From Candidatus Parcubacteria bacterium (GTDB lineage: Bacteria > Patescibacteriota > Minisyncoccia > UBA6257 > JAPLYJ01), in NCBI GenBank assembly GCA_026395655.1, contig JAPLYJ010000064.1:1-34259 (forward strand): a stretch of DNA of 34,259 nucleotides, read 5' to 3'. Numbering within the stretch: the stretch's first letter is position 1; the number at the start of each line of letters is the position of its first letter. The notes below the pieces were generated by a model that saw only the letters and a program-made list of their open reading frames with translations, was not told the origin of the DNA and made no database searches. The position numbers and the translations under genes were made by a program. Below are positions 29,301 through 33,452 of this stretch, piece after piece.

Positions 29301-29621
29301 GCCGTAGATGACGAAACCGATGAAGGTGATCCCTGCATATATTTAGAAGATATTGCAGTGTTAGATGAAGCCCAGGGTCAAGGATTGGGTTGGGAGATGC
29401 TTAAAGAATTAGTTAATAAGTTAAAAATTAAAGCACAAAAAAACAAAAAACCAATATTGCTAGATATGCATTTAAGAAAAAATTCCCAGGGATTATTACA
29501 AAAACACAAAGAAGATTTAGAAGAGATGGGGGTAAGATTAACAGAAGAAGCATTAGAACCTAATTATTATGATACAAATGAAGATGCGTTGTATCAGATT
29601 TATCAAATTCAAATAGATTAA
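26358..29621 (+). CDS. Large multidomain protein (1087 aa): N-terminal array of about 34-aa helical repeats, a coiled-coil-like middle, a Cys/Trp-rich domain and a C-terminal GNAT N-acetyltransferase
   Basis: Repeats F(N/K)LPxEIxQxAxKQxxIxxL...I(D/N)xAIxIxD x about 8. GNAT motif A IYLEDIAVLDEAQGQGLGWEMLKELV at roughly aa 995-1020. Confidence 0.8.
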   Translation: MSEQINLSKGKEKKETILIPEQQVIKNYINEVLVADNKLDLPVVIISSPEAQEIVKQKLITCFKNNNINDAIKINDTFKLPKEIIQEAVKQGIIYHLRGHYIYNAFEISNAFNLPPKIVQEVTKQALINYFEYGYIESAIEITEIFNLPDEIIFSLEVQQAAAQPFISKFKYGSLDDAIKINDTFKLPKEIIQETAKQAFIVWFCNHRIDDVIYDISIAQYAFNLPKTIAQDAPKQGYIECLKSGLIDAAIEIKDICKLSLSKEIISDPEVQKGIEEGFINYLHNNQIDIAIKIKDEFNLPDEIVQKAVEQVVIKHLREHQVNIAIKIKDKFNLYISPQKIIDQIPKLVDIIEQISQLAPPFKMQTEKSSELVIGLCRFINKPDYLINLLKEKLYLIDAIMSNPRFGSRLLLKYPEFDEMSKENIEKLFLTKQKILEQNPDIDPESLEFRQLMQEELKTFKNNPEIMEEIEKQGINLEEWLNHSETSYFNLSSKGSEISFSEKIRTPIDRIKETIDSYAHTIKSVLKEYILELKKHEIALENDESVKEQITKMEGALEQAQAEGNDTKIKGIERGLLTQRERLNNPKKGILWDKLMGDIEAFQGLKNDCFDAQKKLIEAEDKLTGALAGKAPSGKGVLEIKQKIAQAKEELRNKFNVLERRIENFKINLPKLLSPCLGQERSEALIQEIDQAVAEQFYHFELDRTVLANMFSERNDKETEQLESRPMSIFVWARNPDIDLYQGDYSPCCICIDSYDATESTIADYNTDLGIQIVNIWDEAKNEPVTAAWCWLGQNENGEKALVIDNIESNVLFSTNFSEQLSKELLDYIINYAKKIGVDKVILGVDYSDLPSASKLLELKWDNNEYEKIGGSNREYGYYLESEGDIIKLIWDRKEDETIKQPKEARKQKETIKFENISVTNLTEENFDEIRQLEAKIYQDTGLAQGSGLIENIKSDNGLEYSLIIRGKQPDQEEKIIGYIVAVDDETDEGDPCIYLEDIAVLDEAQGQGLGWEMLKELVNKLKIKAQKNKKPILLDMHLRKNSQGLLQKHKEDLEEMGVRLTEEALEPNYYDTNEDALYQIYQIQID
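26466..27390 (+). repeat. Intragenic array of about 8 degenerate 34-codon repeats. Two segments 321 nt apart are nearly identical at the DNA level.
   Basis: gatgctattaaaattaatgatacatttaagctaccaaaggaaataat is identical at 26565-26611 and 26886-26932 (both encode DAIKINDTFKLPKEII). Confidence 0.85.
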
Positions 29622-29637
29622 GATGTTTTACCACCTA

Positions 29638-29666
29638 TTGACAAATCTTTAAGAATATGCATAATA
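29638..29666 (+). promoter_or_regulatory. Consensus sigma70-type promoter P1, 17 nt after the stop of the 1087-aa gene
   Basis: TTGACA (29638-29643), 17 nt, ATAATA (29661-29666). Confidence 0.6.
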
Positions 29667-29671
29667 ACAAA

Positions 29672-29976
29672 TAGAACATTGAGATTAGTTTTTTAAAAAT
29701 GCTTTGGATGATTGCTGACTGTTATTTAGCTACTTAGAGATAGGTGATTAAATAACAGCCAGCAACATCGGCTGACACCTCGCCCTAGGTGGAAAGGCAC
29801 CCCTAGGAACGAAAGGAGACGCCTCCGTATGGTTCCATACCCTGCAGGTGTTCCCCCTTAGCATTTTTTTAAGGCGACGACACCGCCTTATTCATCCCCG
29901 CCCAGTCTGGTGTCGAGACTAGGGCTTATAGAAAAAAATTTGGTAAGTCTCAGCCGAAATATGACTGAGACTTACC
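29672..29976 (+). ncRNA. Candidate structured RNA A1 (about 300 nt), unknown class
   Basis: No long ORF. Contains a 17-bp AT-rich hairpin (29712-29765), a CCTAGG hairpin, a 10-codon mini-ORF (29829-29861), an AAGGCG/CGCCTT hairpin (29871-29889), a hairpin with a GGUGUCG loop (29901-29924) and a terminal 12-bp hairpin (29942-29976). Confidence 0.45.
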
Positions 29977-29981
29977 ACCAT

Positions 29982-30010
29982 TTGACAAATTCTGATAGAT
30001 ATGCTATACT
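29982..30010 (+). promoter_or_regulatory. Consensus sigma70-type promoter P2
   Basis: TTGACA (29982-29987), 17 nt, TATACT (30005-30010). Confidence 0.6.
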
Positions 30011-30015
30011 AAGTG

Positions 30016-30206
30016 AGTAATTGAATAGAGTTAGGTTTTTAAGCTAGTTTGTCCCCAAAGCTTCCAGAACTTTACAATTTAAAAAGTATACATTAAGGAG
30101 AGGCCGCCCGAGCTGGGGCGGTAATACAAATCAGCTAAAACGGCTAAGCGAAGTATCTTTAGGTTAATTTTTAATCTTCTCCGGATATTTCGCTTAGCCG
30201 TTTTTT
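30016..30206 (+). ncRNA. Candidate small RNA B (about 190 nt) ending in a long intrinsic terminator
   Basis: No ORF after its AAGGAGAGG motif. Contains a CCGCCC gagct GGGCGG hairpin. The terminator CGGCTAAGCGAA...TTCGCTTAGCCG (30141-30200, extendable to about 18 bp) is followed by TTTTTT. Confidence 0.45.
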
Positions 30207-30752
30207 AAACGGTTAACAGCACCTTAACATATTGTTCAAAATCATCTGCCATTCACTTTTTAAGGAGAGAGTGGCTACCTTAATAGGTAGTAACAGGAGA
30301 GAGTCCAAGGAGAGAGAATGGATTATAGATAATTTTGAATGAAGCCCAAACCAAATTAGCGAGTTAGAGAATTAAATTAAAAGGGCAAAAATATTTAATT
30401 CTTCAAATACCAAATATTGGTTAAAAAATAAACTCGCTGCTCCTAATTTAGCGGTAAAACTGCGGTTAGGACTGCTGCAATTAAGATTAACCCCCTTAAT
30501 TGGTCAGCAGGCCTTAGATTTGCTTGATACAAATTAAGAAAATTTAAGGCCTGCTAATTCTCAGCAGGAGAAAGGTGGTGGTGCCGATGATCGCATCGGG
30601 CATCCCGCCGTAACAAATCAAGGACGGCACCGTCCTCTCTATCCGAGAAGGGTTGACACATCAGTCTTGGTGCCGAGATTGATGGAAAAACGGTTTATGG
30701 GGTAAGTTTACCGAGACTTCGAGAGAAATAAACTCTCGGCTAAACTTACCCC
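30207..30752 (+). ncRNA. Hairpin-dense non-coding stretch including RNA A2, the 3'-module paralogue of A1
   Basis: Three AGGAGAGAG copies (30263-30316). A multibranch unit closed by GCGAGTT/AACTCGC. A perfect 10-bp GCAGGCCTTA/TAAGGCCTGC stem. A mini-ORF at 30587-30613. An AGGACG/CGTCCT hairpin (30621-30636). A GGUGCCG-loop hairpin (30659-30684). A terminal hairpin at 30699-30752. Confidence 0.4.
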
Positions 30753-30843
30753 CTCACATTCAGATTATAAATTAAAAATAATTTGTAATTTGAAACATGA
30801 GGATAGAGTTCTTTTAAAAATAAAAAATCGCTTCTAGCTATTT

Positions 30844-30892
30844 CTGGCTGCTGTTTAGGTATTTAATATTTAGATATTTGAATAGCAGTCAG
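30844..30892 (+). promoter_or_regulatory. Conserved 14-bp leader hairpin (copy 1)
   Basis: CTGGCTGCTGTTTA ...21 nt... TGAATAGCAGTCAG with three G-U pairs. The paralogue at 31800-31848 differs only on the 3' arm, and pairing is kept. Confidence 0.6.
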
Positions 30893-30947
30893 AACGACCC
30901 TCAGAAGTCCTGACCGTAGTATAGCAGGCCGAGGAAGAAGGAGAAAC

Positions 30948-31217
30948 ATGCAATGCACGAAGGAGTGGAAAACCCAGGATGTTATTACACGCGGGGAACG
31001 CGTAACCTGGTGGGAGGCAAACCACTACCGGGTAATTGTCCCGGTATTCGAAAGTAGCAATGAGGAATTTGAGTTTCTCATTGCCCACAAGCTAGAACAT
31101 GCGGACCAGTACGGTGATTCTTCCGGAGATTCTTCCTTCTCAGATTTCTTTTGGGACAGGATAGAGAGCTTAGCAGAGACACTCGGGGTGCCTGCCCCGC
31201 AAAGGTCGTCTCGCTAA
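30948..31217 (+). CDS. Possible small protein (89 aa) in module copy 1. Coding status uncertain because the segment is hairpin-rich.
   Basis: SD gaAGGAGaaacATG. Protein-like sequence with a GDSSGDSS tandem repeat. It also contains perfect inverted repeats (31026-31046, 31057-31084, 31184-31199). Confidence 0.35.
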   Translation: MQCTKEWKTQDVITRGERVTWWEANHYRVIVPVFESSNEEFEFLIAHKLEHADQYGDSSGDSSFSDFFWDRIESLAETLGVPAPQRSSR

Positions 31218-31268
31218 GTCTACGGAATAATAGTTGGAGAGGTGTCCCGAATCCTCTAAAAAATCGGG

Positions 31269-31294
31269 GGCAGAGCGATGCCGATCGCTCTGCC
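31269..31294 (+). promoter_or_regulatory. Conserved GC-rich hairpin downstream of the module ORF (copy 1)
   Basis: GGCAGAGCGAT gccg ATCGCTCTGCC. The paralogue at 32112-32135 (AGCAGAGCGA tgcg TCGTTCTGCT) carries a G-C to A-T compensatory pair. Confidence 0.6.
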
Positions 31295-31327
31295 AAATGG
31301 CCCTTCGGGGTTTATTCGGGAGGTTCT

Positions 31328-31363
31328 GGAAAGTTTCCTCGGTAAAAACTTTCCAATCTTTTT
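31328..31363 (+). terminator. Rho-independent terminator (module copy 1, first unit)
   Basis: GGAAAGTTT cctcggtaa AAACTTTCC then AATCTTTTT. Confidence 0.7.
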
Positions 31364-31441
31364 CAGCTCATAAACAAAATTTGTGGTCTGAAAGAGGAGA
31401 AATATTAGTTCTTTACAATTTTTAATATTTCCTTATTCTAA

Positions 31442-31496
31442 TTTTGTGTTGCTAATTTAGTAATTTATTTTAGATTATTAAATCGGCAACACAAAA
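31442..31496 (+). promoter_or_regulatory. Conserved leader hairpin immediately upstream of the SD of the small TM ORF (copy 1)
   Basis: TTTTGTGTTGC ...33 nt... GCAACACAAAA. Paralogue at 32267-32321. Confidence 0.6.
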
Positions 31497-31517
31497 AAGA
31501 AAGGAGAAAAGAGAAAA

Positions 31518-31667
31518 ATGAGTCCAGAAGATACGGGACCTTTTTGGGGCCCACTGGTTATCTACGGTCCCTTGTTGTTGGGGCTCGCAATTGTAGCGGT
31601 TATATCCCGTTACAATGAATGGAAAAAGGAGATCACTAATCTCCTAGAAAGGAGAAAAAGAAAATAA
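31518..31667 (+). CDS. Small membrane peptide (49 aa): one TM helix plus a basic tail
   Basis: SD aAAGGAGaaaagagaaaaATG. Sequence MSPEDTGPFWGPLVIYGPLLLGLAIVAVISRYNEWKKEITNLLERRKRK. Below the ORF-track size cut-off. Confidence 0.5.
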   Translation: MSPEDTGPFWGPLVIYGPLLLGLAIVAVISRYNEWKKEITNLLERRKRK

Positions 31668-31679
31668 GAAAAGGCGGAC

Positions 31680-31716
31680 GGCAGGTTCCGCTAAGGGTTA
31701 TAACCTGCCTCTTTTT
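31680..31716 (+). terminator. Rho-independent terminator (end of module copy 1)
   Basis: GGCAGGTT ...14 nt... AACCTGCC then TCTTTTT. Confidence 0.75.
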
Positions 31717-31799
31717 CAGATTATAAATTAAAAAAAATTTGTAATTTGAAACATGAGGTTAGAGTTCTTTTAAAAATTAAAAAACGCTTCTAGTTATTT

Positions 31800-31848
31800 C
31801 TGGCTGCTGTTTAGATATTTAATATTTAGATATTTAAATAGCGGCCAG
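31800..31848 (+). promoter_or_regulatory. Conserved 14-bp leader hairpin (copy 2)
   Basis: CTGGCTGCTGTTTA ...21 nt... TAAATAGCGGCCAG. Confidence 0.6.
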
Positions 31849-31898
31849 GAATTGGTCGACTAATTCTTACCTAAGAAGGTAAGAGAAAGGAGTATGGG

Positions 31899-32090
31899 AT
31901 GGGGATCCCAGTTGGTTATACAAAACACCTAATACTGTGTTTTGTGGAACAGGCGCAGGATCAGGCGCCTGTCACGGGCACAGGCGACTCCACGTGGTAT
32001 GTGGAGTCGCTATGTAATATCATCCGCCGTTTATTGGCGGATGAGCCAGATGAGCCATTCCTAGCAGTAGTTAATCAAGGGGTGCCCTAA
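31899..32090 (+). CDS. Possible small protein (63 aa). More likely a multi-hairpin RNA, or dual-use.
   Basis: SD aAAGGAGtatgggATG, but 31865-32043 consists of six consecutive perfect hairpins. The start codon sits inside one of them. Confidence 0.25.
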   Translation: MGIPVGYTKHLILCFVEQAQDQAPVTGTGDSTWYVESLCNIIRRLLADEPDEPFLAVVNQGVP

Positions 32091-32111
32091 ATCCTCTTTA
32101 AAAAAAATCGG

Positions 32112-32135
32112 AGCAGAGCGATGCGTCGTTCTGCT
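32112..32135 (+). promoter_or_regulatory. Conserved GC-rich hairpin downstream of the module ORF (copy 2)
   Basis: AGCAGAGCGA tgcg TCGTTCTGCT, homologous to 31269-31294. Confidence 0.55.
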
Positions 32136-32163
32136 AGGTTGTGCCCTGCGGGGTATAGATTCG

Positions 32164-32203
32164 CAGGGAGGCGTGTTGGTTACACGAACTCCCTGTTCTT
32201 TTT
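32164..32203 (+). terminator. Rho-independent terminator (module copy 2, first unit)
   Basis: CAGGGAG ...18 nt with inner GTGT/ACAC... CTCCCTG then TTCTTTTT. Same position as 31328-31363 but a different sequence. Confidence 0.7.
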
Positions 32204-32266
32204 CAGCTCATAAACAGAATTTGTGATCTGAAAGAGGAGAAAGTATTAGTTTTTTTCTTTTTCTAA

Positions 32267-32321
32267 TTTTGTGTTGCTAATTTAGTAATTTACTTTAGAT
32301 TATTAAATCGACAACACAAAA
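32267..32321 (+). promoter_or_regulatory. Conserved leader hairpin upstream of the small TM ORF (copy 2)
   Basis: TTTTGTGTTG ... CAACACAAAA. Confidence 0.55.
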
Positions 32322-32338
32322 AAAGAGGAGGCATTAAA

Positions 32339-32482
32339 ATGACCATCGAACAATTAGCACGGCTCCTACTTTTAGTAGGAGTGATCATGATTGCAGCTTA
32401 GATCATGGCTGCAATCACCTGGAAGAAGTATTCCAGGTGGTGGATCTGGAAGTATAAAATAGAAAGGAGGGAAAAAAGATAA
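32339..32482 (+). pseudogene. Paralogue of the small TM peptide interrupted by an in-frame TAG (32399-32401)
   Basis: SD agAGGAGGcattaaaATG. Sequence MTIEQLARLLLLVGVIMIAA*IMAAITWKKYSRWWIWKYKIERREKR. It shares TM + WKK + ERR(K/E)KR architecture with 31518-31667. The TAG lies in the loop of a perfect 10-bp hairpin, TGATTGCAGC/GCTGCAATCA. Confidence 0.35.
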
Positions 32483-32528
32483 AAAAAGCGGATGGCAGGT
32501 TTCGCTAACGGTTATACCCTACCTCTTT

Positions 32529-32641
32529 TTCAGATTATAAATTAAAAATAATTTGTAGTTTGAAAGAAGGGGATATTAGCTCTTTAAAAAACATTTTTGC
32601 AAGGAATACAATTATATTTTAGATGTAGTTGTATTCCTCGC
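32529..32641 (+). repeat. Third, partial module copy (box retained, different leader hairpin)
   Basis: 32529-32565 matches the box at 30759-30795 and 31715-31751. This is followed by the hairpin GCAAGGAATACAA...TTGTATTCCTCGC (32599-32641). Confidence 0.7.
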
Positions 32642-32689
32642 AAAAAGATAGCCACTAAAAACTATACGTGGCAGAAAGGAGGTAATAAA

Positions 32690-33076
32690 ATGAAAGAATT
32701 GGAAGATGCTTTCAACTTTTTGGATAAAAAAATCCAAGAAGTAAAAGATGAGGAAGAGGCAACAAAAAAACGTGCTGCCATTTTTCCCGAAACTGCCCTG
32801 AAGTTGTTACAAAGGGCAACTAGAGAGACAGTGCATATTCTTCTGCCTCACTCCACAGGCAAAATGTGCCTAATCTTTTCACCTCCCATCGAAAAGATTC
32901 AAAAATGGTGGCTTTGCATATATCATGGAGAGCCATTATCGTTTGTTTTTGACGACGACGGATGGGCCAATAACATGCTCGTCAAAGAATGCCTCCAGGC
33001 GTTTATTGATAGGGCTGTTGAGCCCAAAGTATTTCTGGCTTTTCCCAAAGAGCCAGAAATGTTTCCTCAAGTTTAA
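32690..33076 (+). CDS. Hypothetical protein (128 aa)
   Basis: SD aAAGGAGGtaataaaATG at the internal Met of ORF 32597-33076. Protein-like sequence (MKELEDAFNFLDKKIQEVKDEEE...). No motif recognised. Confidence 0.55.
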   Translation: MKELEDAFNFLDKKIQEVKDEEEATKKRAAIFPETALKLLQRATRETVHILLPHSTGKMCLIFSPPIEKIQKWWLCIYHGEPLSFVFDDDGWANNMLVKECLQAFIDRAVEPKVFLAFPKEPEMFPQV

Positions 33077-33167
33077 CTTTAACGTTAGCTCTTTCTGATG
33101 CGAGGCAGAAAGGAAAAAAATGGGGGAGGGATAAATAACATTCCTCCCCAATTTCTCATAAAAAAAA

Positions 33168-33195
33168 TTGACAGTTAATCTCAGTTTGATAATAT
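33168..33195 (+). promoter_or_regulatory. Consensus sigma70-type promoter for the rod-like RNA
   Basis: TTGACA (33168-33173), 16 nt, TAATAT (33190-33195). Confidence 0.55.
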
Positions 33196-33202
33196 TAAAG
33201 TA

Positions 33203-33323
33203 CAAACAAGAACCGCTTAGAGGCGGACTAAAGTGAAGAAGTGATGTCCATCTTTCGGGGTGGAGGAATCTCTCTCCTTACATCATTAATTCATATTTGG
33301 TCTGCCCTTAAGCGGTTTTTTTT
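33203..33323 (+). ncRNA. Candidate rod-like small RNA (about 115 nt), unknown class
   Basis: Long closing helix AACCGCTTAGAGGCGGAC / GTCTGCCCTTAAGCGGTT. Inner GTGATGT/ACATCAT helix. Apical hairpin with a UUCG loop. Followed by TTTTTTT. No ORF. Confidence 0.45.
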
Positions 33324-33342
33324 ATTTTTTAAAAAATATTTC

Positions 33343-33379: not shown

Positions 33380-33452
33380 GCCTCCATAGCTCAATTGGTA
33401 GAGCAATAGCCTTTTAAGCTAGTGGTTGCAGGTCCGAGTCCTGCTGGAGGCA
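33380..33452 (+). tRNA. tRNA-Lys (anticodon UUU), 73 nt, no encoded CCA
   Basis: Cloverleaf folded by hand: GCCTCCA TA GCTC AATTGGTA GAGC A ATAGC CTTTTAA GCTAG TGGTT GCAGG TCCGAGT CCTGC TGGAGGC A. Confidence 0.88.

What the first reader, a model, noticed from the sequence alone, without database searches (positions are those of the whole stretch)
29829..30613. Paralogous mini-ORFs ending in Gly-(Val/Ile)-Pro-Pro-stop at equivalent positions of RNAs A1 and A2
29829-29861 encodes MVPYPAGVPP* and 30587-30613 encodes MIASGIPP*.

Their last five codons are ggt gtt ccc cct tag versus ggc atc ccg ccg taa. They differ at six positions. Four are third-codon positions (Gly and both Pro codons stay synonymous, and the stop changes tag to taa). 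The other two together make a conservative Val to Ile change. That is the signature expected for a translated sequence.

Both are followed by the same structural series: an AAGGnCG hairpin, a hairpin with a GGUG(U/C)CG loop and covarying stem (29901-29924 versus 30659-30684), an A-rich linker, and a long terminal hairpin.

Pro-Pro followed by a stop codon is an established context for slow peptide-bond formation and termination that depends on EF-P. These could therefore be regulatory arrest or leader peptides (inference). The efp-epmA pair lies 7 kb upstream, which may be coincidence.

The sample is tiny, and the A1 start codon is buried in a GTATG/CATAC hairpin.
Basis: partly seen in the sequence, partly recalled or inferred. 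Interest (0 to 1): 0.6.

Follow-up and report, generated by a model that had tools for sequence, protein, structure and literature searches.

The report
Conserved Pro-Pro-stop mini-genes in small RNAs
Two abundant, tightly folded RNAs of about 200 bases in an ultra-small lake bacterium each carry an 8-10-codon reading frame ending in Gly-Val/Ile-Pro-Pro-stop; that ending stays the same across strains while the silent codon positions change freely, so it is very probably translated and most likely makes the ribosome pause.

Summary
Both mini-ORFs sit where stated: 29829-29861 MVPYPAGVPP*, 30587-30613 MIASGIPP*. In both, the stop lies exactly 45 nt after an AGGAG, in the same frame.

Contigs from other lake metagenomes give four more alleles. 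Across six sequences the last six codons (Ser/Ala-Gly-Val/Ile-Pro-Pro-stop) need at least 12 changes at third positions, 2 at first and 0 at second. One strain keeps the frame through a +1/-1 indel pair.

None of 354 long host ORFs ends in Pro-Pro.

Metatranscriptome contigs cover about 29762-29985 and 30562-30759 on the + strand, with untemplated A/G-rich tails. A1 and A2 therefore look like self-contained small RNAs, not leaders of a gene.

The two hairpins after the stop have complementary loops (CGRCACCG/UGGUGYCG) that covary.

Best reading (0.45): a translated mini-ORF that pauses at termination and acts in cis on its own RNA. EF-P dependence and arrest are untested.

One puzzle remains: this lineage's 16S rRNA has no anti-Shine-Dalgarno sequence and host genes have no SD.

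No homologue was found outside this species-level lineage. Earlier, unchecked scan notes describe Pro-Pro mini-ORFs in small-RNA cassettes of other Patescibacteria.

The parts
29638..29665 (+). sigma-70-type promoter of unit A1 (TTGACA, 16 nt, CATAAT)
   Evidence: 11 of 12 matches. The same module is repeated at 29982-30010 (D7).
29712..29765 (+). long 5' hairpin of A1. RNA contigs start just after it.
   Evidence: (I13)
29784..29807 (+). hairpin CCUAGG...CCUAGG. Variant strains carry a compensatory change (G29792U with C29800A).
29814..29818 (+). AGGAG, 10 nt before the A1 start codon and 45 nt before its stop. Unchanged in the variant strain.
29829..29861 (+). mini-ORF A1, MVPYPAGVPP-stop (TAG)
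   Evidence: Alleles MVPRQSGVPP*...SGVPP* and MIPPYLSGVP... come.
29871..29889 (+). hairpin 1 of A1. Its loop holds CGACACC(G) (29878-85). Invariant in the variants seen.
29900..29925 (+). hairpin 2 of A1. Loop GGUGUCG (29909-15) is complementary to the loop of hairpin 1.
29941..29977 (+). terminal hairpin of A1, with no U-tract after it. An RNA 3' end with an untemplated A/G-rich tail lies at 29985.
30506..30555 (+). long hairpin before the A2 core. RNA contigs start at 30562-64.
   Evidence: (I8)
30566..30570 (+). AGGAG, 45 nt before the A2 stop
30587..30613 (+). mini-ORF A2, MIASGIPP-stop (TAA). It lies wholly inside a 15-bp hairpin (30574-30609) in the reference strain.
   Evidence: The variant has only a synonymous CCG to CCT change, plus a 1-nt deletion just 5' of the ATG.
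30621..30636 (+). hairpin 1 of A2, holding CGGCACC(G) (30625-32)
30659..30684 (+). hairpin 2 of A2, loop (U)GGUGCCG (30668-75). Stem changes in the variant keep the pairing (C-G to U.G, G.U to A-U).
30699..30752 (+). terminal hairpin of A2. Tailed RNA ends lie at 30690/30697 (before it) and at 30759 (after it).

Best explanation
A1 (about 29762-29985) and A2 (about 30562-30759) are self-contained, highly structured small RNAs on the + strand. They belong to a Parcubacteria-type (Patescibacteria) bacterium.

Each carries a mini-ORF of 8-11 codons that is really translated. Selection acts on the peptide ending Ser/Ala-Gly-Val/Ile-Pro-Pro and on the stop codon right after it, not on the nucleotides.

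With Pro-Pro-tRNA in the P site and a stop codon in the A site, peptide release is slow. This rests on established knowledge of C-terminal Pro-Pro, not on anything shown here.

A ribosome paused there would reach to the foot of hairpin 1, which starts 7-9 nt after the stop. The loop of hairpin 1 pairs with the loop of hairpin 2.

Inferred: the parked ribosome acts in cis on its own RNA. It either shields the 5' part from RNase J-type decay or sets the fold of the kissing-loop domain. Either way, the amount or shape of the small RNA would follow the cell's translation capacity (EF-P, Pro-tRNA, release factor).

Shown: the ORF, its codon-type conservation, expression and strand of the RNA, its tailed 3' ends, and the conserved hairpins.

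Inferred: initiation, pausing, EF-P dependence and the effect on the RNA.
For: 1. Codon-type conservation. Six homologous sequences were compared: two paralogues and four alleles from other lake metagenomes (rebuilt). Over the last six codons they need at least 12 substitutions at third positions, 2 at first and 0 at second. All six third positions vary. P=0.0015 that all six would be among the 8 variable sites of 18.

2. Frame keeping. One strain has a +1 insertion (after 29834) and a -1 deletion (29844). Together they keep the frame, the length (10 codons) and GVPP-stop, while changing codons 4-6.

3. Local conservation in A2. The variant has 7 changes in the 30 nt before the ATG, including a deletion that breaks the upstream GTG frames. 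Inside the ORF it has only one change, and that is synonymous.

4. Pro-Pro-stop is avoided by the host: 0 of 354 long ORFs end that way.

5. Expression. RNA-library contigs cover the ORF-bearing RNAs but not the upstream gene. They carry untemplated A/G-rich tails on the + strand at 29985, 30690, 30697 and 30759.

6. The genome encodes the factors this model needs. They are EF-P and EpmA, tmRNA and SmpB, RNase III, PNPase and RNase J.

7. Geometry is the same in both copies. AGGAG to stop is 45 nt, and stop to hairpin 1 is 7-9 nt.

8. Short peptides that block termination are established, for example the 14-residue PepNL, plus TnaC, SpeFL and MsrDL (PMC11890864).
Against: - There are no ribosome data.
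- The alleles are known only from difference tables and 30-letter contig ends of four runs. Three substitutions of one contig were not listed.
- The two RNA runs come from one study, and contigs cannot fix RNA ends.
- The lineage's 16S rRNA lacks CCUCC, and 389 host genes with clear starts show no SD. The AGGAG therefore cannot be assumed to recruit ribosomes.
- Host starts sit in A/U-rich unstructured leaders, whereas these AUGs lie in G+C-rich structure.
- Part of the conserved codons (GGU GUU of A1) is also paired in a helix with 29774-79. RNA constraints therefore overlap the coding signal.
- No regulated target is known.
- No homologue outside this species-level lineage was found.
Confidence: 0.45

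Rival explanations
1. The peptide itself is the product. A free 8-11-residue peptide with a conserved SG[VI]PP end would act in trans, for example as a signal or an inhibitor. The RNA would be just a very stable mRNA for it.
For: It rests on the same codon-type conservation. It also fits the strong promoter and the abundant RNA.
Against: The N-terminal half varies freely in sequence and length (VPYPA, VPRQ, IPPYL, IA). Only the residues nearest the peptidyl-transferase centre and the stop are fixed. There is no export signal and no modifying-enzyme or transporter gene beside it. Pro-Pro-stop is a poor choice for efficient production, and host ORFs avoid it.
Confidence: 0.12
2. It is an RNA-only element. 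The conserved letters would be contacts or pairings of a structured non-coding RNA, and the open frame would be a by-product.
For: The region is extremely structured (z -8.6 and -10.2). Strain variants show compensatory changes in the hairpins. The GGUGUU of A1 pairs with 29774-79, and CCGCC of A2 pairs with GGUGG. The host has no SD-type initiation.
Against: A strict three-base periodicity of substitutions (12/2/0) is not expected from pairing or protein contacts. The pairing partners of the Pro codons in A2 mutate in the variant (G30575A, U30576A) without compensation, while the Pro codons stay the same. The hairpins around the start codons are not conserved, but the ATG, the frame and the stop are.
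Confidence: 0.17
3. It is a relic of foreign gene cassettes. The whole 3.7-kb island would have come from an SD-using donor. A1 and A2 would be units whose gene shrank to a stub, and the apparent conservation would date from the donor.
For: The island has 39-41% G+C against about 31% for the host. It holds 18 AGGAG in 3.7 kb against 0.85 per kb in the genome. Its ORFs are orphans. Units with real ORFs share the same 3' grammar of a GGUGYC element, an A-rich linker and a long hairpin.
Against: A1 and A2 are otherwise far diverged; a covariance model built from A1 finds A2 at only 11 bits. Yet they keep the same peptide ending. Present-day strains of this lineage still show synonymous-only change, a frame-restoring indel pair and expression.
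Confidence: 0.1
4. It is a minigene that acts on the translation machinery in trans. A highly expressed short ORF with slow release would trap ribosomes or tRNA-Pro as peptidyl-tRNA. This resembles the bar minigenes of phage lambda (my own knowledge).
For: The promoters are strong and the RNA is abundant and stable. Pro-Pro-stop is present. Another SD-led 4-codon ORF (MDYR*) lies at 30318 in the same island.
Against: There is no phage context. The conserved SG[VI] residues before Pro-Pro are not needed for a simple sink. No evidence of toxicity exists.
Confidence: 0.08

Closest known systems
Short arrest peptides that block termination: TnaC, SpeFL, MsrDL, PepNL, NanCL (PMC11890864, PMC8450073)
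   Same: They are tiny ORFs. The amino acids near the C terminus matter rather than the nucleotides. The ribosome is held with a stop codon in the A site.
   Different: Those peptides sit upstream of a regulated gene and have other sequences. Here there is no downstream cistron, the motif is SG[VI]PP, and stalling has not been shown.
Pro-Pro-stop termination stalls: SsrA tagging at C-terminal Pro-Pro in E. coli, and uORF2 of human cytomegalovirus UL4, which ends ...Ile-Pro-Pro-stop (my own knowledge, not checked in a paper here)
   Same: The last residues are identical (I/V-P-P-stop), and it is a context known to slow peptide release.
   Different: Those cases come from other organisms and other release factors. 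They give no evidence that a Patescibacteria ribosome behaves the same way.
EF-P-dependent XPPX stalling motifs used for regulation (CadC, mgtL/mgtP-type leaders; my own knowledge)
   Same: There are consecutive Pro codons, and the genome has EF-P and its modifying enzyme EpmA.
   Different: EF-P is known to help Pro-Pro bond formation. A role at a stop codon in bacteria is not established. No regulated gene is known here.
5' stabilisers that work through a bound or stalled ribosome: the ermC leader and STAB-SD of Bacillus (my own knowledge)
   Same: An SD-like motif plus a short ORF lies near the 5' end of a stable RNA, in an organism that has RNase J.
   Different: The host ribosome has no anti-SD. 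No stabilisation has been measured.
Classical leader-peptide attenuators (trpL, hisL and others)
   Same: There is a mini-ORF followed by hairpins, and repeated GGUG/CACC segments could pair in alternative ways.
   Different: No U-tract terminator follows on the + strand. There is no biosynthetic operon downstream. The conserved codons sit at the stop, not in a run of regulatory codons.
Dual-function small RNAs (SgrS/SgrT, RNAIII/hld, SR1/SR1P; my own knowledge)
   Same: They are stable structured small RNAs that also hold a small translated ORF.
   Different: Those ORFs are 26 or more codons long and encode active peptides. No base-pairing target is known here.

Membership tests
Ribosome arrest peptides acting at termination | Conservation lies at the amino-acid level near the C terminus, with free synonymous change. 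| tested here: met
   at least 12/2/0 substitutions at codon positions 3/1/2 over the last six codons of six sequences.
Ribosome arrest peptides acting at termination | The ribosome demonstrably stalls with the stop codon in the A site. | not testable with these tools
   This needs toeprinting, ribosome profiling or detection of peptidyl-tRNA.
Ribosome arrest peptides acting at termination | The ORF lies upstream of a gene whose expression it controls. | tested here: not met
   A1 ends at a terminal hairpin and is followed by the next promoter. Tailed RNA 3' ends lie at 29985 and 30759. Nothing longer than 40 codons lies between 29622 and 30870.
EF-P-dependent polyproline motifs | There are consecutive Pro codons and the organism has EF-P. 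| tested here: met
   Pro-Pro is present in all alleles. EF-P scores TIGR00038 206.9 bits and EpmA scores TIGR00462 343.6 bits.
EF-P-dependent polyproline motifs | Translation of the motif depends on EF-P. | not testable with these tools
   This needs in-vitro translation with and without EF-P.
Classical leader-peptide transcription attenuator | An intrinsic terminator (hairpin plus U-tract) follows the leader ORF on the same strand. | tested here: not met
   no + strand terminator-like site lies in 29600-30800. The terminal hairpins lack a U-tract.
Known RNA families (Rfam 15), including tmRNA, riboswitches and ribozymes | The sequence matches a covariance model at or near its gathering score. 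| tested here: not met
   Searches give only sub-threshold miRNA-like hairpin matches. The real tmRNA lies on another contig.
SD-led bacterial cistron | The SD pairs with the anti-SD of the organism's own 16S rRNA. | tested here: not met
   The 16S tail reads ...GAUGAAACAUUUCUUUU. No tail recovered from genomes of the same order contains CCUCC. Host genes show no SD enrichment. Only a weak pairing with two G.U wobbles is possible.

The most novel reading that the evidence does not exclude
The island's canonical SD motifs and its SD-led Pro-Pro-stop mini-ORFs may not be meant for this bacterium's own ribosomes, which have no anti-SD. Instead, the very stable, hairpin-armoured RNAs of this presumed episymbiont would be handed to the host cell it lives on. 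There they would be read by SD-using ribosomes, which would be stalled or occupied at Pro-Pro-stop. A less extreme version is a new class of stand-alone small RNAs that sense translation state. In that version a termination-pause mini-ORF switches a kissing-loop domain (I put that at about 0.25).
Probability: 0.03. Interest if true: 0.95.

Novelty: new variant of a known kind. Interest (0 to 1): 0.6.

Why it matters
Peptides that stall the ribosome are known as switches in front of genes. Here the same kind of signal sits inside self-contained, abundant, elaborately folded small RNAs, in a bacterium with a 0.6-Mb genome.

If the pause is real, it would be a way to tie the life or shape of a small RNA directly to the state of the translation machinery. 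It would also give a short natural termination-stall motif (SG[VI]PP-stop) that can be tested on any ribosome.

The finding also sharpens a puzzle. This lineage has lost the anti-Shine-Dalgarno sequence, yet it carries an expressed island built on Shine-Dalgarno logic. Either initiation in these bacteria is less understood than thought, or the island is read by something else.

Tried and rejected
- **Rfam:** nothing but sub-threshold hairpin look-alikes at the gathering and E<=10 thresholds.
- **BLASTN:** A1-A2 against the own genome and 60 relatives gave only short chance matches. The same-genus genome G001 has SecD at 97% identity, but its contig ends inside secD, so the locus is not assembled there.
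- **Protein anchors:** the island ORFs P0001 and P0002 are orphans. Contigs that carry P0001 are identical to the window. Relatives of the flanking GNAT gene at 53-66% identity have ordinary genes downstream and no array.
- **Kissing-loop pattern scans:**
True hits may therefore have been missed.
  - A stricter pattern found nothing in the GTDB species genomes or in IMG/VR.
  - 400 genomes of the order gave only simple hairpins.
- **Covariance model:** a model built from A1 alone finds A2 at only 11 bits, so remote searches with it are pointless. MAFFT alignments of A1 and A2 are structurally wrong outside the conserved blocks.
- **Stop-codon read-through or frameshifting:** the frames after the stops are unrelated between A1 and A2, and the slippery CCC-CCU of the reference is not kept in the other alleles. 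Rejected.
- **A longer A2 ORF from upstream GTG codons:** it would give 10-12 codons, but a 1-nt deletion in the variant breaks it. Rejected.
- **Minus-strand transcript:** the hairpin at 29977-29941 followed by a T-run looks like a terminator on that strand. The untemplated A-rich tails lie behind + strand ends. Rejected.
- **Parts without RNA cover:** 29600-29760 and 30480-30560 have no cover in the RNA runs. Contigs cannot prove absence, so this is only a weak hint of processing after the long hairpins.

Full report
**Setting.** The window is a whole contig (C65) of a 613-kb, 83-contig genome that is 94.6% complete. Its closest protein relatives are named Paceibacterota. The host has about 31% G+C. 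Between the end of a 1087-residue GNAT gene (29621) and a tRNA at 33380 lies a 3.7-kb stretch of 39-41% G+C. It has few ORFs, many promoters and many hairpins. The finding concerns its first and third units, A1 and A2.

**The observation.**
- Both mini-ORFs are exactly where stated: ATG 29829 to TAG 29861 (MVPYPAGVPP*) and ATG 30587 to TAA 30613 (MIASGIPP*).
- In both units an AGGAG starts exactly 45 nt before the stop, in the same frame.
- Both stops are followed after 7-9 nt by hairpin 1, a spacer, hairpin 2, an A-rich linker and a long terminal hairpin.
- Both RNAs fold far better than shuffled controls (z -8.6 and -10.2).
- New here: the loop of hairpin 1 (CGACACCG in A1, CGGCACCG in A2) is complementary to the loop of hairpin 2 (UGGUGUCG, UGGUGCCG). 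All 8 of 8 pairs form in both, with one A-U to G-C double change. With two sequences this is suggestive, not proof.
- The exact GG-N-RT-N-CC-N-CC-N-TAR pattern occurs nowhere else in the genome. Only 11 short ATG ORFs ending in Pro-Pro-stop exist in 1.2 Mb of both strands.

**Homologues from other samples.**
- No homologue was found in other genomes.
- Twenty public runs from 11 studies hold part or all of the stretch.
- Four runs were laid on 29600-30800. This gave a diverged strain (X10, 90-99% alike) and minor variants.
- The X10 contigs, rebuilt from the tables, give A1 = ATG GTT CCC AGA CAA TCT GGT GTT CCT CCC TAG (MVPRQSGVPP*).
  - A +1 insertion and a -1 deletion 10 nt apart restore the frame.
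  - Both Pro codons carry synonymous changes.
  - The 2-nt deletion that destroys the GUAUGG/CCAUAC hairpin lies just outside the ORF.
- X10's A2 keeps MIASGIPP* with CCG changed to CCT. The 30 nt before the ATG carry seven changes, among them a deletion that breaks the upstream GTG frames.
- Two further contig ends read ...TCT GGG GTA CCT CCT TAG and ATG ATC CCC CCG TAC CTA TCT GGA GTC CCT... . A matching variant contig over 29780-29824 is also present in an RNA library.
- Over the last six codons the six sequences need at least 12 substitutions at third positions, 2 at first and none at second. Gly is written with all four codons.
- This three-base periodicity, plus the frame-restoring indels, is what translation-level selection produces. 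I cannot explain it by pairing. In A2 the partners of the Pro codons mutate without compensation.

**RNA structure is under selection too.** There is a compensatory G29792U/C29800A change. Changes in the stem of A2 hairpin 2 preserve pairing. Hairpin 1 is invariant.

**Expression.**
- Contigs of two lake metatranscriptomes (one study) cover 29762/29768-29985 and 30562/30564-30690/30697, plus 30723-30759. They do not cover the GNAT gene end.
- They carry untemplated A/G-rich or poly(A) extensions after 29985, 30315, 30690, 30697 and 30759.
- Such heteropolymeric tails fit PNPase, which the genome has. They also place the RNA on the + strand.
- The ends 7-8 nt after each terminal hairpin, the absence of U-tract terminators and the promoter right after A1 argue that A1 and A2 are discrete RNAs of about 200-220 nt, not leaders.
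- Contigs cannot fix ends, so this is a hint rather than a measurement.

**Context for a ribosome-directed role.**
- None of 354 long host ORFs ends in Pro-Pro.
- EF-P and EpmA are present. So are tmRNA and SmpB, RNase III and RNase J.
- From established knowledge, C-terminal Pro-Pro slows release.
- Short peptides that block termination are well documented (PMC11890864).
- A ribosome with the last Pro codon in the P site would reach about to the first base of hairpin 1.
- I therefore favour a cis-acting termination pause that protects or refolds the RNA. This step is inference.

**A puzzle.**
- The 16S rRNA of this genome ends ...GAUGAAACAUUUCUUUU instead of ...GAUCACCUCCUUA.
- None of the 16S tails recovered from genomes of the same order contains CCUCC. 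This matches a published loss of the anti-SD in part of the Parcubacteria (PMC9297842).
- 389 host genes with unambiguous starts have A/U-rich, G-poor leaders and no SD.
- Yet the island has 18 AGGAG in 3.7 kb, placed at SD distance before every ORF. The AGGAG of A1 and A2 are unchanged in the variant strain.
- Only a weak pairing with two G.U wobbles is possible.
- So how these ORFs are initiated is open. This is the main argument against my reading.

**Verdict.** Translation of the mini-ORFs is likely (about 0.75). A cis-acting pause at Pro-Pro-stop is the best mechanism (0.45). A leader-peptide role is not supported. EF-P dependence is untested. The family is new as far as these searches reach, and it is a variant of a known kind of device.

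**Earlier scan notes.** Unchecked notes on other Patescibacteria genomes report Pro-Pro or Arg-Gly-Pro-Pro mini-ORFs in small-RNA-like units. They hint at a wider theme that I did not test.

Noticed in passing
L184:1652-1700 (16S rRNA 3' end, contig C35) versus window 29622-33330: The 16S rRNA has no CCUCC anti-SD (UUUCU in its place), and neither does any 16S tail recovered from genomes of the same order. Host genes have no SD. Yet the island carries 18 AGGAG, each at SD distance from an ORF start. The anti-SD loss is published for part of the Parcubacteria (PMC9297842). The SD-rich island inside such a genome is unexplained.
   Followed up: partly
window 29985, 30315, 30690, 30697, 30759: RNA-library contigs end here and continue with untemplated A/G-rich or poly(A) letters. 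This looks like PNPase-type tailing of 3' ends in a Patescibacteria bacterium.
   Followed up: partly
window 29982-30210: Unit B has a near-consensus promoter (TTGACA, 17 nt, TATACT), an AAGGAG with no start codon after it, and a perfect 21-bp terminator hairpin with a U-tract (30137-30210). It is a separate small-RNA gene of about 190 nt between A1 and A2, and RNA contigs cover it.
   Followed up: no
window 30032-30048 and 33407-33423: A 17-nt stretch of unit B matches 15 of 17 letters of the anticodon arm of the tRNA(UUU) gene at 33380-33452. It could be a leftover attachment-site repeat of an integrated element, or chance.
   Followed up: no
window 30307-30332: A third SD-led mini-ORF, AAGGAGAGAGA-ATG GAT TAT AGA TAA (MDYR*), sits behind three AGGAGAGAG copies. 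One variant base (A30332G) falls in its stop codon region in strain X10.
   Followed up: no
window 31232-31250, 32066-32092, 29908-29917, 30668-30677: A GGUG(U/C)C element lies just before the A-rich linker and long terminal hairpin in four units (A1, A2 and the two ORF-bearing units). In unit C2 it forms the ORF end ...Gln-Gly-Val-Pro-stop.
   Followed up: no
window 29892-30094: One low-depth contig of run X10 replaces these 203 bases with 117 other letters, while keeping hairpin 1 and a ...SGVPP-stop ORF before it. The array is therefore structurally polymorphic between strains.
   Followed up: no
window 29628-29660 and 29972-30004: A module TTACCACC-(T/A)(T/A)-TTGACAAAT... is repeated: the 3' arm of a terminal hairpin plus the next promoter. 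The units seem to have multiplied as hairpin-plus-promoter blocks, and the first copy overlaps the end of the GNAT gene.
   Followed up: no
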